From positions 6,364 through 70,363 of the forward strand of contig CAZYSP010000003.1 of the NCBI GenBank assembly GCA_964650285.1: a stretch of DNA of 64,000 nucleotides, written 5' to 3'. Under the pieces are notes generated by a model. The model was given only the letters and a program-made list of their open reading frames with translations. It had not been told where the DNA came from and ran no database searches. Source of the stretch: an uncultured Methanosarcinales archaeon. GTDB lineage: Archaea > Nanobdellota > Nanobdellia > Woesearchaeales > GW2011-AR4. Position 1 is the stretch's first letter. Every line of letters begins with the position of its first letter. The position numbers were made by a program, and so were the translations under genes. Shown here piece by piece: positions 1,984-59,389 of this stretch.

Positions 1984-4900
1984 ATGTACGGACAAGAGCA
2001 GGTTGCAGTAGAAGCGCAAAAAGAGACAAAGATAAACAAGATTGTAATGAGTGGTTTCAAGAGTTTTGCCAAGCATACTGAGATTTTCTTTAATAGCAAT
2101 TTCAATTGTATTTTGGGGCCAAATGGCGCTGGAAAAAGCAATATACTGGATGCTTTGTGCTTTGTTTTGGGAAAAAGCTCTTCAAAATCATTAAGGGCAG
2201 AAAGAGCAGCTAATTTAATCTATAACGGTGGTAAATTAAAAAAACCAGCTAAGCAGGGAGAAGTTTCAATTTTCTTTGACAATAACAAAAAAACATTTCC
2301 TACAGAAGATAATGAGGTTAAGATTACAAGAATTGTAAGGCAAAGCGGCCAGTCAGTTTACAAGATAAATGATGAAACCAGAACAAGGCAGGAAATTCTT
2401 GATTTACTATCAATTGCAAAGATAAACCCTGATGGCTATAATATAATCTTACAGGGAGATATAGTAAAATTTGTGGAGATGCATCCTGACCAAAGACGCG
2501 AACTTATTGGAGAAATTGCAGGCATTTCTGTTTACGAGGAAAAAAAACATAAGGCCTTGTTGGAACTGCAGAAGGTTGATGAAAGTCTCAGAGAAACAGG
2601 AATAGTGCTTACCGAAAGGAATACATATCTAAAAGAGCTTAAGAAAGACCGCGACCAAGCGTTAAAATACAGGGATATGAACGACAGAATAAAGCAAAAC
2701 AAAGCTTCTTACTTAAAACTGCAAATTGATAGGAAACAAAAAGAAAAAAATGAGCAACAGAAAAAACTGGAAGAGACAAACAATGAATTAGCCAGAATAA
2801 ATGAAAAAATTGAGAATTTAAAGAAGCTTAATGAGGAAAAAAGAGCCAAAATTGATGAAATAACCAAAGAAATAGAAGAAAAAGGCAATGTAGGGCAGAT
2901 AAAGCTGAATAAGGGAGTGGAAGAATTAAAGATAGACATTACTAAAAAAAATTCCAGGATAGACACAATAAAAAATGAGCTAAACAAAATAACCAATAGA
3001 AAGAATGACTTGCAGAACAGCATCAAGGAAACACAGGATAAGATAAAAGAGCTGGAAACAGAAAAAGAGAACATGCAGAATGAGATTTCTTCTAAAGAGA
3101 GAGAAAGAATTCTTATAACAAAAAAGACAAAGGATTTCAGGGAAAAAAATAAGCTTGACAATATTGGTGAGATAGAGAAACAGGTTGAGGATATAGATAA
3201 AAAATCAGAAGAGCTGCAAAAGGAAGTGCAGTCAGCCCGCGAACAACAACATAATCTGATAAGGGAAAAAGACAAAATAGTTCATGAAATCAGCACTATA
3301 GATGTACAGATAAATAAAGTTCTTGATATAGAAAAAGAAAACAAAAAAAGAGTTGAGGAAGTAAAAAACAAAAGAAACGAATTCAAAAAATCAACCTTGG
3401 AGCTTAACAAAAAGCTGGAAGAGGATTCATCTTCAGCTGCTCAATTATCAAATGCAAGAAAGAATATATTTAATGCAAATGAGGAGCTTGCAAAATTAAA
3501 GGCAAGGCAACTAGGGACAAGGGAATTGAGCTATGGAGAGATAGCAATCAAAAGAATACTGGACCTTAAAAAATCAGGTATTTACGGGACAGTTGCAGAA
3601 CTAGGCAATGTCAAATCAACATATGCTTTGGCTTTGGAAATTGCCGCTGGAGCAAAGCTGAAAGGTGTTGTTGTAGAGGATGATAAGACATCTTCAGAGT
3701 GTATTAAATATCTGAAAGAAAACAAGTTAGGAGTTGTGACTTTCTTTCCGTTAAATAAAATCAAGTCAAATCCTGCCAAGGTAGAAATAAAAAAGATTTC
3801 CAGGTCAAAAGGAAGCCACGGACTGGCCATAGACCTGATATCCTTTGATGCTAAATTCAAAAAAATCTTTGAATATGTTTTTGCAGACACGCTTGTAGTG
3901 GACAATATAGATGTCGCAAGAAGGCTTGGAATTGGAAGTGCAAAATATGTTACATTAGATGGTGACCTAGCAGAGAAAAGCGGGGCAATGCGTGGTGGCT
4001 TCAGACTAAAAAGAAAGCACAGCATGGGCTTTAAAGAGCAAGATGTTGTCAAGGAAATTGATAAATATGAAAATGAACTCAAAGATCTGAAAAACACAAT
4101 AGATATTCTGGAAAAAACAAGAATTGAAAATGAGGAATTAATAGCAAACTTAAGGATCAAAAAGGCAAAATTAGAAGGGGAAATAATAAAGACAGAAAAG
4201 TCCTTACATCTTGAGGCAACCGACCTTGAAGCATCAGAACAGAAAAAAGCATCTCTCATGGAGCAGGAAAAAGAAGCTGGCCAAAAAATAAAGCTTGTTG
4301 AGGAAAAAGTTGCTTCTTTAAATAATGAGCTTGCAACAATAAAAACAGAAAAGCAAAAATTAAGAGCTAACATATCGCAATTAAGCAATCCCACACTGCT
4401 TGCAGAGCTGAATGCATTTGAAGAAAAACTAAAAGAGTTGGATGAGGATGTAATAAGGATTGACTCTGAGATAAAAAATATAGATGACCAGGCAGAAAAC
4501 ATATATAAAAGCGAGTTGGGAAAGACGGATAAGATAATAAAGCAGCTTGAGAAAGATGATGAGGAGTTTAACAATGAGTTGAAAAATCTGACAGAAATAG
4601 TAAAAGATAAAAACAATGAATTAAAGAAAAAGGAAGACCTGGCTCAGGATTTCTATGCAAAGTTTAAAGGTCTATTCCATAAAAGGGATGAAATAGACAA
4701 AGAAATACAAAGAAACCAGGCAACAATGAACAACAGGCAGGATGACAGCAGAAAGGTTGAGGTCAGGGCCAATACCTTATCATTGAAATTGGCAGAGATA
4801 GAATCAGTACTTTCTGGATTGAATTTGGAATTCCAGCAATATGAAGGAGTTAAATTAGACTTAAGCAAAAATGAAGACCAGCTCAAATATGAAATAAAAA

Positions 4901-47242: not shown

Positions 47243-47791
47243 ATGAAAACAAGGGAAAGCTGTTTGATATGCCAGATTGTAGGGAATAAAGTTCCATCCT
47301 ATAAAGTATATGAAGATGACTTAATCTTAGCAGTTGTAGATGTAAATGGAGCTAACCCCGGGCATTGTTTTGTGATTCCAAAAAACCATTATCCTATTAT
47401 TGAGCAAGTGCCTGACCAAGAGCTTGCAAATCTTTTTTCAGTTGCGAATAAAATTTCTTCTGCTATATTTGAAAATCTAAAAGTGCAGGGAACAAATATA
47501 TTTGTTGCTAACGGAATTCCAGCTGGCCAGACTGTAGCGCATTTTATGATTAATGTTATACCAAGAAAAGAGAATGATGGTATTAACCTGCAATGGAAAG
47601 CAAAGCAATTAAGCCAGGAAGAGATGTCCACTGTTGAGCTTAAGCTTAAAGAGCAAATACAGAATGTGGGTGTAGGAAAAATTGAAAAAACAGAGAAGCC
47701 AGAAACAGCTGCTGAGAAAGCAAAAATACCGCCAATATCAGATGATGACGAAGATGATTATTTTATGAGGCAAACAAAAAGAATACCTTAA
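47243..47791 (+). CDS. HIT-like paralogue with degenerate triad (H-x-M-x-N)
   Basis: CLICQIV N-terminus. Triad region VAHFMINVIP. Starts 4 bp after the previous gene. Confidence 0.6.
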   Translation: MKTRESCLICQIVGNKVPSYKVYEDDLILAVVDVNGANPGHCFVIPKNHYPIIEQVPDQELANLFSVANKISSAIFENLKVQGTNIFVANGIPAGQTVAHFMINVIPRKENDGINLQWKAKQLSQEEMSTVELKLKEQIQNVGVGKIEKTEKPETAAEKAKIPPISDDDEDDYFMRQTKRIP

Positions 47792-48693
47792 AGCATAAAA
47801 AACACCAGATTACCGTAAATCAAGGTGACAATATAGGCAATAAAAAAGCTCGGGACAAAAGGAATTCCTTCTTTAATTAATATTTTCTTGACTTTTCCTT
47901 TTTTATACAAGGCTGTTAGCTTATTGATTTTCTTTTTCTCAATTCCCAGGTCCTTTGGCCCAGTGATATATTTTCCATTTATTTTAACATCTTTGGCAAT
48001 CCAGTCTCCTTCTGTAAGCTGTTTGGGTGTAACATATTTGAGCATGCATGCATTTTCAACTGCTTTTATCGCAACCCAGAGATAAAATGTAATTATTGAT
48101 ATAAGCGCAAGGTAAAGAATCATTAACCTAACAAATTTATCAGGAACTAAAATAGCAAGCAAAACCAGAATTATAAATAAAACCAAAAGAAATTTTTTTG
48201 CTAACTTTGTTTTTTTACTGTTGATAGATTTTTTAAAGTTTCTGGAGAATTTCTTCTTATTCTTGAAAATATAAAAAATGCTCCACAAAATTCCATATAA
48301 GGCTCCCACAAGCAAAGCATTTATTAAAAAGTGTACAAGGAAAAAATTATTTGAAAAAATATCTATCCCTATTACAGCTCCAAGGCCCATAAGAATCTTA
48401 CTGTCACCACCACCCCACTGACCTGTGTAGAACATTATCCATGCCAGGGCAAAGAAAACTGCAAATCCTACAACACTTGCTATAATAAAATTTATTTTAA
48501 AAAAAATAATGGAAAATAACAAATTAACGCCAAAACCTATGCCTATTAAGCCAAAATTAACCCAGTCTGGGACTTCTCTTGTCTTTAGGTCTGTATATGA
48601 TGCGATTAATAGGACAAGAAATGCTATTGCATATGGGATGATTATATTTAAGGGCGCATCTATGATTTGATGAATAAGATTATCAATCACCAT
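47788..48693 (-). CDS. A24-family archaeal prepilin/preflagellin peptidase (PibD/FlaK-like)
   Basis: Polytopic membrane protein with YTDLKTREVPD and GQWGGGDSK (GxGD) aspartyl-protease motifs. Confidence 0.65.
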   Translation of the reverse strand: MVIDNLIHQIIDAPLNIIIPYAIAFLVLLIASYTDLKTREVPDWVNFGLIGIGFGVNLLFSIIFFKINFIIASVVGFAVFFALAWIMFYTGQWGGGDSKILMGLGAVIGIDIFSNNFFLVHFLINALLVGALYGILWSIFYIFKNKKKFSRNFKKSINSKKTKLAKKFLLVLFIILVLLAILVPDKFVRLMILYLALISIITFYLWVAIKAVENACMLKYVTPKQLTEGDWIAKDVKINGKYITGPKDLGIEKKKINKLTALYKKGKVKKILIKEGIPFVPSFFIAYIVTLIYGNLVFFML

Positions 48694-48725
48694 TTTAACG
48701 CTAAATTTTCACATTGTTTATTAGT

Positions 48726-49664
48726 TTATTGTTTAATCTTAACCAATGCTTTATCCTTTGCTTTATTCAGCTTATCCGCAAATTTGCAGGCATTGCACTT
48801 ATCCCTTGATGCCGGCTCTCCGCAATTCATGCAATAATTTACTGCTTCATCCTTAAATCTTTGCTTTAAGCCAGGAAGAACATGCAAAAAGGAATTTACA
48901 ATGGAATATTTTGTTCCAGGAAACTTCTGCTCAAAACCATTCATCATGTCCCTTACTTGCGCCCTGTAGCTTTTTGAAACATTGGGGCACTCCGCAAACT
49001 CATCCAATAGATTATTGACAAATGCATAAGTTGCCACTTCTTTTTCCATGCATAAATACAATGGCTTGATTCTCTGGACAAAATTTTTATTTATTTTTAC
49101 CCCGACTTTTGGGCCTAATCTGGCAGAAGCCTGTATGTTGTTCTTAAACTGGTTCATCATGATACTCTGGCACTCATCATCCAGATTATGTCCAGTTGCT
49201 AGTTTTGTAAGCCTTAGTTCTTTTGATTTTTTATTTAGAAGATAGCGCCTGAATATTCCGCATATTGTACATGGCTTTACATCAAGAACTTTTAACATAT
49301 TGTCCAAAGGCATTCCAAACTCTTCTTTGAAAGAATAAATATTTAATTTGATATTATGCTTATTGCAGAACTCTTTTGCAGTTATTAAGGATTTGTCCCT
49401 GTAATTTTTTATTCCTTCATCTATAGCTATTGCTTCTATTTTTATCTTAGGATTTCGCTTTGATAATTTATTCAAAATATATAATAATGTTAAAGAATCC
49501 TTGCCGCCAGAAATAGCAACACCCAGATTTTCTTGTTTTTCAATAAGACCAAATTTAGTTATAGTTTTGAATACTTTGTCCTCAAAATAGTTTATAAAAT
49601 GTTTTTTGCACAGCTTTTCTCCTGCCGGCAATTCAATTATCGGCTTTTCAATACAACACTTCAT
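48726..49664 (-). CDS. tRNA 2-thiolation PP-loop ATPase (NcsA/TtuA/Ctu1-like)
   Basis: SGGKDS PP-loop. N- and C-terminal CxxC zinc fingers (CMNCGEP...CNACK). Confidence 0.75.
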   Translation of the reverse strand: MKCCIEKPIIELPAGEKLCKKHFINYFEDKVFKTITKFGLIEKQENLGVAISGGKDSLTLLYILNKLSKRNPKIKIEAIAIDEGIKNYRDKSLITAKEFCNKHNIKLNIYSFKEEFGMPLDNMLKVLDVKPCTICGIFRRYLLNKKSKELRLTKLATGHNLDDECQSIMMNQFKNNIQASARLGPKVGVKINKNFVQRIKPLYLCMEKEVATYAFVNNLLDEFAECPNVSKSYRAQVRDMMNGFEQKFPGTKYSIVNSFLHVLPGLKQRFKDEAVNYCMNCGEPASRDKCNACKFADKLNKAKDKALVKIKQ

Positions 49665-49713
49665 TTTATTATTAATAATTATTATTTTTTAAATTTAATT
49701 TTTATTATTGTAA

Positions 49714-49971
49714 TTAACCTCCTGAAATAACAGATATTAGCCTTATATTATCTTTATCATTGAGTTTCTCGTCTTCTGTGACAACAGTATCATCTTTGCT
49801 TACTATTACTGTAACTGGATTTATTTTCATTTTATCTAATAGGTTTTTTACTAATGAATTGCCAGCTAACTCTATTGTTTTTTCTTTGTTTTCACGGTCA
49901 TAATATACATGTATCTCCATAGGAATGAAGAAACAAATATCAGTTTTTAAAGGTTTATATTGCTTAATCAA
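49714..49971 (-). CDS. ubiquitin-like sulfur-carrier protein (ThiS/MoaD/SAMP fold) ending in GG
   Basis: C-terminal ...IRLISVISGG. Lies immediately upstream of the thiolation ATPase on the same strand. True start may be the internal Met, giving 68 aa. Confidence 0.55.
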   Translation of the reverse strand: MIKQYKPLKTDICFFIPMEIHVYYDRENKEKTIELAGNSLVKNLLDKMKINPVTVIVSKDDTVVTEDEKLNDKDNIRLISVISGG

Positions 49972-50018
49972 ATGCTAAAACCAAAAAGCTTATAAAGTAC
50001 ATATGAATTATTATTCAT

Positions 50019-50318
50019 ATGAAGTGCAAATCATACGAGACCTTTTTCATTAATTTTTCAAATAAGAGCAAATTAGGCATAATTACAGCGCTAAGATCAG
50101 GGCCATTGAATGTAAGCACAATTGCCAAGAGGACTAAAGAAGAGCAAAGTGCTGTGTCCCACAACCTGAAAAAATTAAGCGCATGCCATATTCTGGATGT
50201 TGAAAAAGTGGGAAAAGAAAGAATATATTCATTAAATAAGGACACTGTCATGCCAATATTGAAGCTGGTTGAAAAACATGTCATAAAAAGGTGCCCTGGA
50301 GACTGCTGCAAAAAATGA
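50019..50318 (+). CDS. ArsR/SmtB-family HTH regulator with C-terminal Cys cluster
   Basis: HTH region LNVSTIAKRTKEEQSAVSHNLKKL. C-terminal CPGDCCKK. Its stop overlaps the iscS start in ATGA. Confidence 0.6.
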   Translation: MKCKSYETFFINFSNKSKLGIITALRSGPLNVSTIAKRTKEEQSAVSHNLKKLSACHILDVEKVGKERIYSLNKDTVMPILKLVEKHVIKRCPGDCCKK

Positions 50319-51469
50319 GAGCTAAGGAAATATATCTGGACAATGGGGCAACAACAAAAGTTGATCCCAAGGTTTTGGAAGCAATGATGCCCTACTTCGG
50401 CGAGAAATACGGCAATGCTTCTTCAAATCATACTTTAGGGCAAGCTTCAAAGGATGCCTTGGAAAATGCAAGAAAAATAATTGCTGAATCAATAAATGCA
50501 GAAAGTAATGAGATGATATTTACTTCTGGAGGAACAGAGTCAAATAACTTAGCAATCCAGGAAATAGCATACACAAACAGAGATAAAGGCAATCATATAA
50601 TAACAACAAAAGTAGAGCATAAAAGTATTCTAAACACTTGTAAATTTCTGGAAAAAGATGGTTTTAAAGTAACTTATCTTGGTGTTGATAAAGAAGGTTT
50701 TGTAAATCCAAAAGACTTAGAAAAAGCTATCACAAATGAAACAATTCTAGTTTCTATAATTCATGGAAATAATGAAATAGGAGCTATACAAGATTTAGAA
50801 GTTTTAGGAAAAATCTGCAAAAAAAATAATGTTTATTTTCATACTGATGCATGCCAAAGTTATACAAAAACACAGATTGATGTTAACAAGCAGAATCTTG
50901 ATCTTGTAACATTAAATTCACATAAAATCCACGGCCCAAAAGGAGTTGGTGCATTGTTTGTAAAAAAAGGAACAAATATCTACCAATTAATACATGGTGG
51001 AGGTCATGAGTTTGGATTAAGGTCAGGAACTGAAAATATACATGGAATTGTTGGTTTTGCAGAGGCTGTAAAATCAGCTGATAAAAAATATATAGAATAT
51101 ATGACGAGGTTAAGAGATAAATTAATCAATGGTGTTCCTAAGATACCATATGTAAAACTTAATGGTCCAAAAAATTCAAGATTGTGCAACAACACAAATT
51201 TTTCTTTTAAGGGAATTGAAGGAGAGGCAATTGTTGGGTATTTAGATCAGGAAAGGATTTACTCTTCAACAGGCTCTGCTTGCTCAGAAAAAACATTAGA
51301 GCCGAGCTATATTTTAAAGGCAATTGGCTTAAGTCACCAAGAAGCAAACGGAAGCCTAAGACTAGTGTTAAGCAGATTTACAACAGAAGAAGAAATTGAT
51401 TATGCTTTAAAAGTACTGCCGGGAATAGTGGAAAACTTAAGGAAAATGTCTCCATTATGGAAGGGATGA
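50315..51469 (+). CDS. iscS: cysteine desulfurase
   Basis: SGGTESNN, PLP-lysine SHKIHGPKG, SSTGSACSE motifs. Start is taken at MRAKEIYLDNGATT. Confidence 0.9.
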   Translation: MRAKEIYLDNGATTKVDPKVLEAMMPYFGEKYGNASSNHTLGQASKDALENARKIIAESINAESNEMIFTSGGTESNNLAIQEIAYTNRDKGNHIITTKVEHKSILNTCKFLEKDGFKVTYLGVDKEGFVNPKDLEKAITNETILVSIIHGNNEIGAIQDLEVLGKICKKNNVYFHTDACQSYTKTQIDVNKQNLDLVTLNSHKIHGPKGVGALFVKKGTNIYQLIHGGGHEFGLRSGTENIHGIVGFAEAVKSADKKYIEYMTRLRDKLINGVPKIPYVKLNGPKNSRLCNNTNFSFKGIEGEAIVGYLDQERIYSSTGSACSEKTLEPSYILKAIGLSHQEANGSLRLVLSRFTTEEEIDYALKVLPGIVENLRKMSPLWKG

Positions 51470-51472
51470 ATT

Positions 51473-51844
51473 ATGTACACGCAAAAAACAATCAAACATT
51501 TCAGAAGTCCTAAATTTGCAGGTGAAATAAAAAATCCTGATGCTGTTGGAGAAGTTGGAAATGCAAGATGTGGGGATGTTATGAAAATGTTCATAAAAGT
51601 AGAAAATGGTATAATTAAAGACATTAAATTCCAGACTTATGGCTGCATAGCTGCAATAGCCTCTTCAGATGTAATGTGCGAGCTGGCAATAGGAAAAACA
51701 TTAGATGATGCATTAAAAATAACCTTTAAAGATGTTATTAAAGAACTTGATGATCTGCCGCAAATAAAGTATCATTGCTCTGTTTTAGGAACTGCATCAT
51801 TAAAAAAAGCCATTCAGAATTATAAGAAAAGAATGAGTAAGTAG
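51473..51844 (+). CDS. iscU: Fe-S cluster assembly scaffold protein
   Basis: CGDVMK, GCIAAIASS, HCS cysteine and histidine ligands. Confidence 0.9.
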   Translation: MYTQKTIKHFRSPKFAGEIKNPDAVGEVGNARCGDVMKMFIKVENGIIKDIKFQTYGCIAAIASSDVMCELAIGKTLDDALKITFKDVIKELDDLPQIKYHCSVLGTASLKKAIQNYKKRMSK

Positions 51845-56969: not shown

Positions 56970-58739
56970 TTATTCCAACACAGCCTTAATCCTTCTTATT
57001 CCAGCAGCAGAGCTTTCTTCTTTTATTATTTTAAATTTGCCAAGTTCATTGGTATTTTTAACATGAGGTCCGCCGCATATTTCTGTTGAAAAATTTTCTA
57101 TTGAATAAACAGAGACTCTTTCAGCATATTTATGCTCAAAGACTCCCTGTGCATTCTTCTTTTTTGCCTCTTCTAAAGTCATTTCTTCCTTTTTAACTTG
57201 CAACCCGGCTTTTATTTTTTCATTAACAATGTCTTTTATCTTTTTTATTTCTCCTTCGCTTAGTTTTCTGTCAAAATTAAAGTCAAACCTTAATCTTTCC
57301 GGAGTTATGTTAGAGCCTTTCTGGATTATTTTATCATCTTTTAAAACTCTTCTTAATGCTTCATTTAACAAATGGGTAACTGTATGTAATTTTTTTGTTT
57401 GTTCGGAGCTATCAGCTAAGCCTCCTTTAAAGCGCTTTTCTGCTCCTGCCCTTGAAAGCTTTTGATGTTTTTTGAATTCTTTCTCAAAACCTTTTTTATC
57501 TACTTTGATTCCTTTTTCTTCTGCTAATTCTTCTACCATTTCTAATGGAAAGCCGTATGATTGGAATAAAAGGAAAGCTTCTTTTCCTGATATTTTTTTG
57601 TCATTTGCCATCCTTTCAAACTTACGAAGGCCTTTCTCAAGTGTTGCTCTGAATTTTTCATCTTCTTTTTTTAGTTCATTTAAGATGAAATTTTTGTTTT
57701 TTTCTAACTCATTATAATCTCCTTTATGAAGGTTGATAACTATTTTTGCCAATTCTGTTACAAATTCTTTTTCTATACCTAATAACTTTCCATGCCTTAT
57801 GGAGCGTCTTATGAATCTCCTTAGAATGTAACCTTGGTCTAGATTTGATGGTACTATCCCTAGATCGTCTCCTAAAATGAATATTGCTGCCCTTATATGG
57901 TCTGTTATTATTCTTATTGAGAGTTCTTGTTTCTCGTTAGGATTATCTATTTTTGCTAGTTCTTTTATTTTTTCTACTATTGGAGTAAAGGTTTCTATTT
58001 CATATACTGTTTTTTTGCCTTGAAGTGTTGCTATAGTTCTTTCAACACCCATTCCAGTATCAACGGTTTTTTGTTTAAAGGGAATGTATTTTCCCTCTTT
58101 TGTTTTATTGTATTGTATAAAGACATCATTCCAAATCTCAAAATATTTTCCGCAACTACATCCTGGCTTACAATCTTTACTGCATTTTTCTTTTCCAGTA
58201 TCATAAAACATTTCAGTATCTGGACCGCATGGACCTGTTGAACCAGCAGGACCCCACCAGTTATCTTTTTTTGGCAGATAAAAAATTCTTTTTTTTGGAA
58301 TTCCTAAGCTTTTCCATATTTTTGCTGATTCCTCATCTCTTGGAGCATCTTTGTCTCCTTTAAAAACAGTAATATACAGCTTGTTTTTATCCAAACCAAG
58401 CCATTTTTTTGATGTTAAGAACTCAAAGCTCCATTCAATTGCTTCTTTTTTCCAGTAATCTCCCAAAGACCAGTTACCAAGCATCTCAAAAAATGTTAAG
58501 TGGGAAGGATCTCCTATCTCATCTATATCCCCTGTTCTGATGCATTTTTGAACATCAACTAAACGCTTGCCAGCAGGATGACTTTCTCCCATTATGTATG
58601 GAACAAGAGGGTGCATACCCGCAGTTGTAAATAAAACAGTTGGATCGTGTTCAGGAATTAAAGAAGCAGAGTTAATCAATTTATGCCTCTTTTCAATAAA
58701 AAATTCAAAATATTTTTTTTTAAAATCTTTGGCTTTCAT
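56970..58739 (-). CDS. alaS: alanyl-tRNA synthetase lacking the C-terminal C-Ala domain
   Basis: TTAGM...QKCIR...HLTFFEMLGNWSLGDY catalytic core, HLLNEALRRVL and CGGPHV editing motifs. Ends about 35 aa after CGGPHV. Start is trimmed to MKAKDF so it does not overlap tRNA-Glu. Confidence 0.85.
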   Translation of the reverse strand: MKAKDFKKKYFEFFIEKRHKLINSASLIPEHDPTVLFTTAGMHPLVPYIMGESHPAGKRLVDVQKCIRTGDIDEIGDPSHLTFFEMLGNWSLGDYWKKEAIEWSFEFLTSKKWLGLDKNKLYITVFKGDKDAPRDEESAKIWKSLGIPKKRIFYLPKKDNWWGPAGSTGPCGPDTEMFYDTGKEKCSKDCKPGCSCGKYFEIWNDVFIQYNKTKEGKYIPFKQKTVDTGMGVERTIATLQGKKTVYEIETFTPIVEKIKELAKIDNPNEKQELSIRIITDHIRAAIFILGDDLGIVPSNLDQGYILRRFIRRSIRHGKLLGIEKEFVTELAKIVINLHKGDYNELEKNKNFILNELKKEDEKFRATLEKGLRKFERMANDKKISGKEAFLLFQSYGFPLEMVEELAEEKGIKVDKKGFEKEFKKHQKLSRAGAEKRFKGGLADSSEQTKKLHTVTHLLNEALRRVLKDDKIIQKGSNITPERLRFDFNFDRKLSEGEIKKIKDIVNEKIKAGLQVKKEEMTLEEAKKKNAQGVFEHKYAERVSVYSIENFSTEICGGPHVKNTNELGKFKIIKEESSAAGIRRIKAVLE

Positions 58740-58793: not shown

Positions 58794-58868
58794 TGCTCCC
58801 AACGGGATTCGAACCCGTGTCTCGGCCTCGAGAAGGCCGAATGATTGGCCGGGCTACACCATGGGAGC
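58794..58868 (-). tRNA. tRNA-Glu(CUC)
   Basis: GCTCCCA-TG-GTGT-AGCCCGGCCAA-TCAT-T-CGGCC-TTCTCGA-GGCCG-AGAC-ACGGG-TTCGAAT-CCCGT-TGGGAGC-A. 75 nt, no intron. Confidence 0.8.
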
Positions 58869-58883
58869 ATAGAAAATAAAAAA

Positions 58884-59047
58884 TGGGCCCGGAGGGATTT
58901 GAACCCCTGACCTAAAGCCAAGACATTTTATCTTTCCGGCTGGCTTAGCTCTCTAATGGCTAAAACATTTGTACCATTAGTGGTCATATAAGACCGGCGC
59001 TTTTGTCTAAGCTTGTAGCTTATCTAACCAGGCTGAGCTACGGGCCC
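58884..59047 (-). tRNA. tRNA-like locus (164 nt), canonical ends and T-arm, interior interrupted, probably by two introns; isotype unresolved
   Basis: GGGCCCG-TA-GCTC-AGCCTGGTTAGA... then ...AGGGG-TTCAAAT-CCCTC-CGGGCCC-A. TTAGA occurs twice, 73 nt apart, suggesting a D-arm intron. An AAGCC/GGCTT helix flanks a 22-nt segment in the anticodon region. Confidence 0.45.
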
Positions 59048-59097
59048 ATAGCTAGAATAGAAATTTGTTTCATATTTAAAAGTTTCTCATAAGAAAA

Positions 59098-59181
59098 TGC
59101 GGCAGCCGAGATTCGAACTCGGGTCCCAGCCTTTTTACAATGTTTGGCAAGGCCGGATCTTAACCACTGGACTACTGCCGC
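59098..59181 (-). tRNA. tRNA-Gly(GCC) with 12-nt canonical intron
   Basis: GCGGCAG-TA-GTCC-AGTGGTTA-AGAT-C-CGGCC-TTGCCA[12 nt]A-GGCTG-GGAC-CCGAG-TTCGAAT-CTCGG-CTGCCGC-A. Confidence 0.7.
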
Positions 59182-59212
59182 ATAAAAATTAGTTTATCTA
59201 AAATAAAAATGG

Positions 59213-59389
59213 TGGGCCCGACCAGACTTTCATCAGCTTTTCTGATTTTGCAAAGCAAAATCCTAGGTGAATGACCAAAGGGAAGTTCACCGCATTTTCC
59301 CAGGTTTTTTGCGTGAGCAAAAAAGCTGTTTTGAACTGGTGACCTACTCGGTGTAAACGAGTTATCATACCGGGCTAGACCACGGGCCC
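59213..59389 (-). tRNA. tRNA-Val(UAC) with a 103-nt intron at T-loop position 59/60; CCA encoded
   Basis: GGGCCCG-TG-GTCT-AGCCCGGTA-TGAT-A-ACTCG-TTTACAC-CGAGT-AGGTC-ACCAG-TTCAAA|103 nt|T-CTGGT-CGGGCCC-ACCA. Intron ends pair (CAGCTTTT/AAAAGCTG). Confidence 0.65.

What the first reader, a model, noticed from the sequence alone, without database searches (positions are those of the whole stretch)
58884..59047. 164-nt tRNA-like locus with textbook ends but a scrambled interior
It starts GGGCCCG-TA-GCTC-AGCCTGGTTAGA, a canonical archaeal 5' end, and finishes AGGGG-TTCAAAT-CCCTC-CGGGCCC-A. The D-stem 3' strand GAGC is found only 73 nt later, preceded by a second TTAGA. A 15-nt insertion appears to sit between AAGCC and GGCTT. 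I could not derive a unique anticodon; GUC is possible but weak. This is either a doubly intron-containing tRNA, one intron being in the D-arm, or a decaying gene. It sits in a tight cluster of four tRNAs.
Basis: partly seen in the sequence, partly recalled or inferred. Interest (0 to 1): 0.5.

Follow-up and report, generated by a model that had tools for sequence, protein, structure and literature searches.

The report
Three-intron isoleucine tRNA gene
This is most likely an intact gene for the isoleucine tRNA that reads AUA codons in a marine Woesearchaeota (DPANN) archaeon; three short introns hide it from standard tRNA finders, which looks odd but is a known kind of archaeal gene.

Summary
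The 164-nt locus is real and lies on the minus strand (59047 to 58884). It is not a two-intron tRNA-Asp and shows no sign of decay.

It is a tRNA-Ile(UAU) gene with three bulge-helix-bulge (BHB) introns:
- 22 nt at tRNA position 22/23, in the D-stem 3' strand
- 45 nt at the canonical 37/38 position
- 22 nt at 43/44

Removing them gives a 75-nt cloverleaf. ARAGORN calls it tRNA-Ile(tat). It scores 78 bits against a profile of 68 natural tRNA-Ile(UAU) sequences and is 93% identical to the closest.

The decisive evidence is comparative. Related Woesearchaeota carry the orthologous gene in the same tRNA cluster without one or other intron, and the alignment gaps fall exactly at the predicted junctions. 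The D-arm intron hairpin shows three compensatory base-pair changes.

AUA is the commonest Ile codon in the window (49%), so an AUA-reading tRNA is needed. Multi-intron tRNAs and tRNA-Ile(UAU) are already documented in DPANN and Thermoproteales. This is a new member of a known kind; its 43/44 intron was seen in only 2 of about 120 genes.

The parts
58884..59047 (-). Complete tRNA-Ile(UAU) gene, 164 nt: four exons and three introns, with no encoded CCA
   Evidence: Rfam tRNA model aligned end to end at 28.1 bits. The spliced product is called tRNA-Ile(tat) by ARAGORN. It scores 78.2 bits against a natural Ile(UAU) profile.
59024..59047 (-). Exon 1 (idx 1-24): acceptor 5' strand GGGCCCG, U8 A9, D-stem 5' strand GCUC, D-loop AGCCUGGUUA, and G22
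   Evidence: Invariant in all seven aligned orthologues except for paired acceptor changes.
59002..59023 (-). Intron 1 (idx 25-46, 22 nt, ATAAGCTACAAGCTTAGACAAA) at tRNA position 22/23. HBh'-type motif: central helix GGUU/GACA (3 of 4 pairs), bulges AG|A and AA|A, inner hairpin TAAGCT-ACA-AGCTTA (6 bp).
   Evidence: Absent exactly here in L202, L015, L203, L184 and L104, and in 116 of 120 metagenome genes. Present in L026 with 3 compensatory pair changes in the hairpin and a 4/4 central helix. 0 of 20000 shuffled introns reach the observed motif.
58987..59001 (-). Exon 2 (idx 47-61): A23 G24 C25 G26, anticodon-stem 5' strand CCGGU, loop C32 U33 U34 A35 U36 A37 (anticodon UAU)
   Evidence: Rfam alignment; ARAGORN; conserved in orthologues.
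58942..58986 (-). Intron 2 (idx 62-106, 45 nt) at canonical 37/38. Central helix CUUA/UAAG (4/4), bulges UA|U and CC|A. The outer helix is the anticodon stem. An internal 7-bp hairpin CTAATGG/CCATTAG is present.
   Evidence: BHB enumeration. Homologous intron in L202 (93% identical), L015, L026 and L203. Absent in 9 natural intronless genes such as L104. 106 of 20000 shuffles reach the motif.
58936..58941 (-). Exon 3 (idx 107-112, AGCCGG): A38 plus the anticodon-stem 3' strand GCCGG (positions 39-43)
   Evidence: Invariant AGCCG in the alignment. Pair 27:43 covaries as C-G / A-U / G-U.
58914..58935 (-). Intron 3 (idx 113-134, 22 nt, AAAGATAAAATGTCTTGGCTTT) at position 43/44. Full hBHBh' motif: outer helix GCC/GGU, central helix AGCC/GGCU (4/4), bulges GG|A and UU|A, inner helix AAGAUA/UGUCUU.
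   Evidence: BHB enumeration, second-ranked motif of 261. Present in the minimum-free-energy fold of the precursor. Absent exactly here in L026, L015, L203, L184 and L104; present in L202. 0 of 20000 shuffles.
58884..58913 (-). Exon 4 (idx 135-164): variable loop AGGUC, T-arm AGGGG-UUCAAAU-CCCUC (A49.C65 mismatch, G50.U64), acceptor 3' strand CGGGCCC, discriminator A73
   Evidence: Sequence; ARAGORN drawing. The same A49.C65 mismatch occurs in L202 and L156.
59073..59080 (-). TATA-like box TTTAAATA within AAACTTTTAAATATG, about 26-33 nt upstream of the gene
   Evidence: Read from the sequence. The same motif sits at the same distance in L015 (GCTTTAAATATG), L026 (ACTTTTAAATATG) and L202 (AACTTTAAATAC). 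Function is inferred.
58878..58883 (-). Run of six T directly after A73, a likely archaeal termination signal
   Evidence: Read from the sequence. T-runs also follow the orthologues. Function is inferred.

Best explanation
The locus is a functional gene for tRNA-Ile with anticodon UAU, the decoder of AUA, in a marine Woesearchaeota (DPANN) archaeon. Three archaeal-type introns interrupt it at tRNA positions 22/23 (22 nt), 37/38 (45 nt) and 43/44 (22 nt).

Inferred pathway:
1. The gene is transcribed from its own TATA-like promoter.
2. Each intron-exon junction folds into a bulge-helix-bulge motif (HBh', hBH and hBHBh' respectively). The archaeal splicing endonuclease EndA cuts both 3-nt bulges, and the RNA ligase RtcB joins the exons.
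3. CCA is added after transcription, giving a 75-nt body (GGGCCCGUAGCUCAGCCUGGUUAGAGCGCCGGUCUUAUAAGCCGGAGGUCAGGGGUUCAAAUCCCUCCGGGCCCA).

Intron 3's central helix uses nucleotides 38-41, and its outer helix uses the last bases of intron 2. Its BHB therefore cannot coexist with the anticodon stem that forms the outer helix of intron 2's BHB. I infer that intron 3 is removed before intron 2.

Shown here: the exon/intron boundaries, the cloverleaf, the isoacceptor identity, the BHB geometry and the conservation. Inferred: transcription, the enzymes involved, the splicing order and aminoacylation.
For: 1. Rfam's tRNA model places the anticodon stem at CCGGU/GCCGG with loop CUUAUA, flanked by three large insertions.
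2. Removing idx 25-46, 62-106 and 113-134 gives a 75-nt sequence that ARAGORN calls tRNA-Ile(tat).
3. That product scores 78.2 bits (E = 6e-26) against an HMM of 68 natural mature tRNA-Ile(UAU) sequences and is 93% identical to L184 and L093. The natural intronless gene L104 scores 68.4 bits on Rfam tRNA.
4. Orthologues in the same Gly/Ile/Glu tRNA cluster lack individual introns precisely. L015 and L203 lack introns 1 and 3, L026 lacks intron 3, and L202 lacks intron 1. MAFFT places the gaps at exactly idx 25-46 and idx 113-134.
5. 116 of 120 metagenome tRNA-Ile(UAU) genes have no insertion at 22/23.
6. BHB motifs sit at all three junctions. Shuffled introns reach the observed motif 0, 106 and 0 times in 20000.
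7. Covariation: the intron-1 hairpin has 3 of 6 pairs changed on both sides with none broken. Pair 27:43 appears as C-G, A-U and G-U. Pair 7:66 is G-C in the window and A-U in L015.
8. Universal tRNA bases are all present in the spliced product, read directly from the sequence: U8, A14, G18 G19, A21, U33, A37, G53, U54 U55 C56, A58, C61 and A73.
9. ATA makes up 44.7 per 1000 codons and 49% of Ile codons in 41 window ORFs.
10. tRNA-Ile(UAU) replacing the TiaS/CAU system is documented in other DPANN lineages (PMC3239211). Heavy tRNA gene disruption in DPANN is also documented (PMC5829648).
Against: - There is no transcript or splicing evidence; none of the tools give RNA data.
- The unspliced gene is just below Rfam's gathering score (28.1 against 29). 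I could not run a covariance model on the spliced sequence.
- Intron 1's central helix has only 3 of 4 pairs (a G.A mismatch). Intron 2's inner helix is a single pair next to the bulge.
- The T-stem has an A49.C65 mismatch plus a G.U pair, although L202 and L156 share the mismatch.
- In thermodynamic folding the two BHB-presenting conformers lie about 20 kcal/mol above the minimum-free-energy structure. Only intron 3's motif appears in that structure.
- No EndA gene is on record within the 64-kb window, so the enzyme type is unknown.
- The natural Ile(UAU) profile was collected with a pattern covering positions 10-37. Its support is independent only for positions 1-9 and 38-73.
Confidence: 0.93

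Rival explanations
1. One reading: a two-intron tRNA with a roughly 73-nt intron in the D-loop (idx 24-96) and a 15-nt intron in the anticodon loop (idx 107-121). This gives tRNA-Asp(GUC) with anticodon stem AAGCC/GGCUU.
For: The spliced product is a formal cloverleaf that ARAGORN calls tRNA-Asp(gtc). A weak 4-bp helix (UGGU/AUUA: 2 A-U and 2 G.U) with 3-nt bulges can be drawn for junctions 24-96. The TAGCUC/GAGCUA pairing is part of the precursor's minimum-free-energy fold.
Against: - The 15-nt 'intron' has no BHB; only 2 of 4 central-helix pairs form.
- The loop would be AUGUCUU, with a pyrimidine at position 37.
- From general knowledge, not tested here: tRNA-Asp normally has discriminator G73 and C38, whereas this gene has A73 and would have U38.
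- L026 lacks GAGC at the required place. L026, L015 and L203 lack the GGCTT strand altogether because they have no intron 3.
- In L202 the would-be anticodon becomes AUC.
- The profile score is 43 bits against 78 for the three-intron product, and those 43 bits come from the shared 5' and 3' ends.
Confidence: 0.02
2. A decaying or dead tRNA gene. Insertions have accumulated in a former tRNA-Ile gene, it is no longer processed into a working tRNA, and another gene decodes AUA.
For: - ARAGORN and Rfam's gathering threshold both fail on it.
- The T-stem has an A.C mismatch.
- Intron 1's central helix and intron 2's inner helix are imperfect.
- Expression data are lacking.
- The rest of the genome, where another AUA decoder could sit, is not available.
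Against: - All three insertions sit exactly where removal restores a canonical 75-nt tRNA, and each carries a BHB motif.
- Stems and the intron hairpin are maintained by compensatory changes across species.
- Universal tRNA bases are intact.
- The TATA-like box and the T-run are conserved in four species.
- Relatives carry other combinations of introns in an otherwise conserved gene. Neighbouring Val and Gly genes in the same cluster are also intron-bearing. Interruption is therefore the normal state in this lineage.
- AUA is the most used Ile codon.
Confidence: 0.04
3. One gene, two products: alternative excision gives both tRNA-Ile(UAU) and a second tRNA-like RNA (the Asp-like cloverleaf) from the same transcript.
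For: Both splice patterns give ARAGORN-acceptable cloverleaves. The precursor's lowest-energy fold contains the helix used by the alternative.
Against: This reading faces the same evidence as the first rival. The alternative has no usable BHB at the anticodon-loop junction, it is not conserved in any orthologue, and its anticodon changes in L202.
Confidence: 0.01

Closest known systems
[quoted passage not shown] 2007/2008, as reviewed in PMC4090602)
   Same: Up to three short introns per tRNA gene, each bounded by strict or relaxed BHB motifs. Position 22/23 is on the published list of non-canonical sites, and 59/60 (seen in the neighbouring Val gene) is too. Similar introns shared between different tRNAs are also described there.
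   Different: The host is a mesophilic marine DPANN archaeon with 33% GC, not a hyperthermophilic crenarchaeon. Position 43/44 is not in the abbreviated list in that review. The endonuclease type here is unknown, whereas Thermoproteales use the (alpha-beta)2 type.
ARMAN-2 (Micrarchaeota, DPANN) pre-tRNA-Ile(UAU), with a 25-nt canonical intron cleaved in vitro by the epsilon2 endonuclease (PMC3239211)
   Same: Same superphylum and same rare isoacceptor. In ARMAN, tRNA-Ile(UAU) replaces the tRNA-Ile(CAU)/TiaS system. Both have a canonical 37/38 intron with a BHB.
   Different: ARMAN-2's gene has a single intron with a strict hBHBh' motif. This one has two more introns, at 22/23 and 43/44, and a relaxed inner helix at 37/38. 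Absence of TiaS and of tRNA-Ile(CAU) could not be checked here.
Methanopyrus kandleri pre-tRNA-Glu(UUC), with a canonical intron plus a relaxed HBh' intron in the D-loop (PMC5829648)
   Same: A canonical intron combined with a D-arm intron of the relaxed HBh' type. In that system the order of removal matters experimentally.
   Different: Different tRNA and different lineage, with two introns rather than three. The same paper reports that many DPANN carry alpha4-type EndA with an extra 'L3' loop and heavily disrupted tRNA sets, which is the likely context here.

Membership tests
tRNA (Rfam RF00005) | Genomic sequence reaches the family's gathering score (29 bits) | tested here: not met
   28.1 bits, full-length alignment to model positions 1-71 with three large insertions; E = 0.0013 locally and 0.11 over the window. 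The shortfall is the penalty for the insertions. The intronless relative L104 scores 68.4 bits.
tRNA (Rfam RF00005) | Four-arm cloverleaf of canonical dimensions after intron removal | tested here: met
   ARAGORN calls the 75-nt spliced product tRNA-Ile(tat). It has a 7-bp acceptor stem, 4-bp D-stem, 5-bp anticodon stem, 7-nt loops and a 5-nt variable loop. The T-stem has 4 pairs plus an A49.C65 mismatch.
tRNA (Rfam RF00005) | Universal bases U8, A14, G18 G19, A21, U33, purine 37, G53, U54 U55 C56, A58, C61 | tested here: met
   All are present in the spliced sequence, read directly.
Archaeal BHB (EndA-spliced) tRNA intron | Two 3-nt bulges separated by a 4-bp helix at the exon-intron junctions | tested here: met
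   Intron 3: 4/4 central helix with both flanking helices. Intron 2: 4/4 central helix with the anticodon stem as outer helix; the inner helix is 1 bp. Intron 1: 3/4 central helix (4/4 in L026) with a 6-bp inner helix. Introns 1 and 2 are therefore relaxed forms.
Archaeal BHB (EndA-spliced) tRNA intron | The insertion is dispensable: orthologues lack it precisely at the junction | tested here: met
   Alignment gaps fall at idx 25-46 and idx 113-134. Nine natural genes lack the 37/38 intron.
Archaeal BHB (EndA-spliced) tRNA intron | Cleavage by the splicing endonuclease and ligation of the exons | not testable with these tools
   No RNA data are available. No EndA (PF01974/PF02778) is on record among the genes called across the window.
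tRNA-Ile(UAU) isoacceptor | Anticodon UAU in a 7-nt loop with U33 and purine 37 | tested here: met
   The loop is C-U-U-A-U-A-A after removal of intron 2.
tRNA-Ile(UAU) isoacceptor | Body sequence groups with natural tRNA-Ile(UAU) genes | tested here: met
   78.2 bits against a profile of 68 natural sequences; 93% identity to L184 and L093, median 84%. Positions 10-37 were part of the collecting pattern, so the independent support comes from positions 1-9 and 38-73.
tRNA-Ile(UAU) isoacceptor | Charged by IleRS, with U34 modified so that AUG is not read | not testable with these tools
   Needs biochemistry or tRNA-seq.

The most novel reading that the evidence does not exclude
tRNA introns are being gained, lost and moved now in marine and groundwater Woesearchaeota. 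Four related species carry four different intron sets in the same tRNA-Ile(UAU) gene: {22/23, 37/38, 43/44}, {37/38, 43/44, 59/60}, {22/23, 37/38} and {37/38, 59/60}. One T-loop intron family sits in both tRNA-Val and tRNA-Ile. The 43/44 site may be a position not described before. In addition, the mutually exclusive BHB folds of introns 2 and 3 would impose an obligatory splicing order. If so, this cluster is a natural system in which the still-unknown mechanism of archaeal tRNA intron insertion could be caught in action.
Probability: 0.3. Interest if true: 0.5.

Novelty: new member of a known kind. Interest (0 to 1): 0.3.

Why it matters
AUA is the most used isoleucine codon in this window, yet its likely decoder is invisible to ARAGORN and falls below Rfam's threshold. 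Annotation pipelines would therefore report these DPANN genomes as lacking an essential tRNA. That would distort estimates of genome completeness and of 'missing' translation functions in supposedly reduced symbionts.

The locus also shows that two different intron assignments can both give a formally acceptable cloverleaf. Only comparison with relatives separated them.

The variation of intron sets among close relatives, and an intron family shared by Val and Ile genes, adds a mesophilic DPANN example to the intron-mobility phenomenon so far described mainly in Thermoproteales.

Tried and rejected
1. I rejected it on BHB geometry, position-37 and position-73 identity, and the orthologues.
2. 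Thermodynamic folding was not usable as an arbiter. The minimum-free-energy fold of the precursor (-60.7 kcal/mol, z = -4.5) is neither cloverleaf. It contains intron 3's BHB and the TAGCUC/GAGCUA helix. Folds of partially spliced forms do not cleanly reveal the remaining BHBs.
3. Identical copies of the locus in other metagenome assemblies (L001-L006) show no variation, so they give no information on constraint.
4. I looked for EndA, TiaS and other processing genes in the window using the Pfam hits on record for the contigs. None was found. One look-up found no record.
5. I searched for copies of introns 1 and 3 elsewhere in the window and in about 200 related loci. There were none beyond the orthologues.
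6. A literature search for position '43 44' together with tRNA intron terms returned nothing. This is weak evidence because of how the search tokenises text. One paper query failed on syntax.
7. My automatic parser over-called 43/44 and T-loop introns in a few distant genes (L089, L098, L188). I corrected this by a stricter check, which left only the window and L202 with a 43/44 intron.
8. A C/D-box guide RNA in the large Val intron was considered. A weak sR47 hit had E = 7.8. The TGATGA there is not conserved in L015 or L203, and it is explained by the BHB helix.

Full report
**1. The observation**

The finding lies on the minus strand. Read 5'->3' from window 59047 to 58884 it is 164 nt. I number it idx 1-164, where window coordinate = 59048 - idx.
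- the 5' end GGGCCCG-TA-GCTC-AGCCTGGTTAGA;
- a second TTAGA followed by GAGC at idx 92-100;
- AAGCC and GGCTT, 22 nt apart;
- the 3' end AGGGG-TTCAAAT-CCCTC-CGGGCCC-A.

It is the third of four tRNA genes on that strand. ARAGORN sees only tRNA-Glu(CUC) at 58794-58868. Rfam at its gathering score also sees a tRNA at 59098-59181. The finding itself aligns to the whole Rfam tRNA model (positions 1-71) at 28.1 bits, just under the 29-bit threshold: E = 0.0013 in an 801-nt search and 0.11 for the whole window. Independently assembled metagenome contigs (JGI 3300022227 and GenBank CEUD01116948) are 100% identical over the whole 697-nt cluster region that was compared. It is therefore not an assembly artefact.

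**2. Two competing intron assignments**

It placed the anticodon stem at CCGGU/GCCGG with loop CUUAUA and three large insertions of 29, 47 and 23 nt.

I enumerated all bulge-helix-bulge cores, meaning a 4-bp helix flanked by 3-nt bulges cut after the second bulge base. The second-ranked motif of 261 was idx 113-134: central helix AGCC/GGCU, inner helix 6 bp, outer helix 3 bp. A motif at idx 62-106 was also high on the list: central helix CUUA/UAAG, with the 5-bp anticodon stem as outer helix.

A third motif appears at idx 25-46 when one mismatch is allowed in the central helix. It has GGUU/GACA (3 of 4 pairs), bulges AG|A and AA|A, and a perfect 6-bp hairpin TAAGCT-ACA-AGCTTA.

Removing these three segments gives a 75-nt sequence that ARAGORN calls tRNA-Ile(tat). 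A cloverleaf alone therefore does not decide between the two models.

**3. What decides it: relatives**

The adjacent AlaRS identifies the organism as a member of the Woesearchaeota (DPANN). The best matches are 70-78% identical proteins in Woesearchaeota and Nanoarchaeota genome bins. Two of those loci carry the orthologous gene upstream of tRNA-Glu and AlaRS. A pattern scan of metagenomes returned 120 tRNA-Ile(UAU) genes. The informative ones are these:

| Locus | Source | 22/23 | 37/38 | 43/44 | T-loop (59/60) |
|---|---|---|---|---|---|
| window | marine | 22 nt | 45 nt | 22 nt | none |
| L202 | marine, CEUC01079726 | none | 44 nt, 93% identical | 22 nt | 42 nt |
| L026 | genome bin CAYTDO010000007 | 22 nt | homologous | none | none |
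| L015 | groundwater Woesearchaeota | none | homologous | none | present |
| L203 | metagenome contig (ERZ1292645) | none | homologous | none | present |
| L104 and eight others | metagenomes | none | none | none | none (75 nt) |

In a MAFFT alignment the gaps fall at exactly idx 25-46 and idx 113-134. Of the 120 metagenome genes, 116 have nothing inserted at 22/23.

It is missing in L026. The GGCTT strand is absent wherever intron 3 is absent. The would-be anticodon GUC becomes AUC in L202.

A profile HMM built from 68 natural mature tRNA-Ile(UAU) sequences gives:
- 78.2 bits for the three-intron product (93% identity to the nearest natural genes);
- 43.0 bits for the Asp-like product, which shares only the two ends;
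- 5-16 bits for the other tRNAs of the cluster.

Positions 10-37 were part of the pattern used to collect these sequences. The independent part of this test is positions 1-9 and 38-73. The natural intronless gene L104 scores 68.4 bits on Rfam tRNA.

**4. Structure support**

The window and L026 differ at three of the six pairs of the intron-1 hairpin, each time on both sides: A-U to G-C, C-G to U-A, and U-A to A-U. No pair is broken. L026 also repairs the mismatch in the central helix (GGUU/GACC). Anticodon-stem pair 27:43 appears as C-G, A-U and G-U. Acceptor pair 7:66 is G-C in the window and A-U in L015.

Intron 3's helices are fully paired in both carriers. With only two sequences there is no covariation to count.

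I shuffled each intron while keeping the junctions fixed. The observed combination of central-helix and inner-helix pairing was reached 0, 106 and 0 times in 20000 for introns 1, 2 and 3. The 15-nt segment has 2 of 4 pairs.

**5. How it most likely works**

A TATA-like box (TTTAAATA, 59080-59073) lies about 30 nt upstream. It recurs at the same distance in L015, L026 and L202. A run of six T follows A73. I infer that the gene is transcribed on its own. I further infer that EndA cuts the three junction motifs, the exons are ligated, and CCA is added, since no CCA is encoded.

The motifs differ in type:
- Intron 1 is HBh', relaxed on the outer side.
- Intron 2 is hBH, with a one-pair inner helix followed by an internal loop and a 7-bp hairpin.
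- Intron 3 is a complete hBHBh'.

Relaxed motifs outside the anticodon loop need a broad-specificity endonuclease. Published work links such enzymes, including alpha4 types with an extra L3 loop, to heavily disrupted tRNA sets in DPANN (PMC5829648). It also shows in-vitro cleavage of a DPANN pre-tRNA-Ile(UAU) (PMC3239211).

Intron 3's central helix uses nucleotides 38-41, and its outer helix uses the last three bases of intron 2. That fold excludes the anticodon stem, which is the outer helix of intron 2's motif. Intron 3's motif is also the only one present in the precursor's minimum-free-energy structure. I therefore infer the order intron 3 first, then intron 2. This step is inference only.

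The function is needed. ATA is 44.7 per 1000 codons and 49% of all Ile codons in 41 ORFs of the window.

**6. Weak points**

- There are no RNA data.
- No EndA or TiaS is on record among the genes called across the window. The rest of the genome is not available, so I cannot say whether a second AUA decoder exists.
- The T-stem has an A49.C65 mismatch and a G.U pair. L202 and L156 share the mismatch.
- The BHB-presenting conformers are about 20 kcal/mol above the computed minimum. This is common for tRNA precursors but gives no support.

**7. Comparison with what is known**

Up to three BHB introns per tRNA gene, non-canonical sites including 22/23 and 59/60, and similar introns in different tRNAs are described for Thermoproteales (PMC4090602 and references there). 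tRNA-Ile(UAU) is rare in archaea: only Korarchaeum and Nanoarchaeum among 167 genomes carry it (PMC6000648). It is known in the ARMAN lineages of DPANN, where TiaS and tRNA-Ile(CAU) are missing (PMC3239211). Kaneta et al. analysed a Woesearchaeota genome and noted that incomplete tRNA sets in DPANN point to undetected disrupted genes (PMC5829648).

This locus is one such gene. It is a new member of a known kind.

The 43/44 site is not in the abbreviated published list I could read. Among roughly 120 tRNA-Ile(UAU) genes it occurs only in the window and L202. I could not establish that it is unreported. Three-intron versions of this same tRNA also occur in L202, L138 and L158.

**8. Verdict**

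The 'decay' alternative is unsupported. Confidence in the three-intron tRNA-Ile(UAU) reading is about 0.93. Interest is modest: 0.3 overall, or 0.5 if the intron turnover seen among relatives reflects an active insertion process that this cluster could help to dissect.

Noticed in passing
window 59210-59389 (- strand); intron 59227-59329: The fourth gene of the cluster is tRNA-Val(UAC), with a 103-nt intron in the T-loop (position 59/60; central helix UUCA/UGAA) and a genome-encoded CCA (59212-59210). ARAGORN misses it and it falls below Rfam's gathering score. After splicing ARAGORN calls it tRNA-Val(tac).
   Followed up: partly
window 59227-59329; L015:1056-1183 and 2312-2472; L026:~1560-1795; L203: The Val T-loop intron belongs to a family also found at the same position in tRNA-Val of L015 and L026, and in tRNA-Ile(UAU) of L015 and L203. 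Val and Ile genes share almost identical acceptor and T-arm halves: the 3' half of L026's Ile gene equals that of the window's Val gene. Gene conversion between neighbouring genes, or intron transposition, could move the intron.
   Followed up: partly
window 59098-59181 (- strand): tRNA-Gly(GCC) with a 12-nt intron at 37/38 (central helix UUGC/GUAA, essentially no inner helix). Rfam gives 47.7 bits. ARAGORN confirms Gly(gcc) only after splicing.
   Followed up: partly
window 56973-58739 (- strand): The AlaRS next to the cluster has its closest relatives outside DPANN among Spirochaetes (about 60% amino-acid identity over the full length). This suggests a bacterial-type AlaRS acquired or exchanged horizontally.
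   Followed up: no
idx 8-13 with idx 97-102 of the gene (window 59035-59040 with 58946-58951): A 6-bp helix TAGCUC/GAGCUA between the D-stem 5' strand and the 3' part of intron 2 is in the precursor's lowest-energy fold. It is kept in L202 and L015, reduced to 5 bp in L203, and lost in L026. Whether it has a role in precursor folding is unexplained.
   Followed up: partly
window ~47700-51500 (PF01171 protein at 48726-49664, - strand): A PP-loop ATPase (ATP_bind_3) lies next to a ThiS-like small protein, a cysteine desulfurase and NifU. This looks like a tRNA thiolation module (Pfam hits on record).
   Followed up: no
L148 (metagenome contig Ga0307992_1008771): A tRNA-Ile(UAU) gene whose canonical intron carries four tandem copies of a roughly 45-nt unit that includes the 3' splice-site region (…AAATCTAAGAAAGCCA…). 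L142, L169 and L174 show two copies.
   Followed up: no
L015:2528-2636; L202 (reverse strand) ~341-435: The tRNA-Glu downstream of the Ile gene is intronless in the window. It carries a D-loop intron in L015 and an anticodon-region intron in L202. This is more evidence of intron turnover in the cluster.
   Followed up: no
L026:2900-3085 and 3300-3465: GC-rich, structured-looking non-coding stretches flank the Ile gene in L026. They may be other RNA genes; they were not examined.
   Followed up: no
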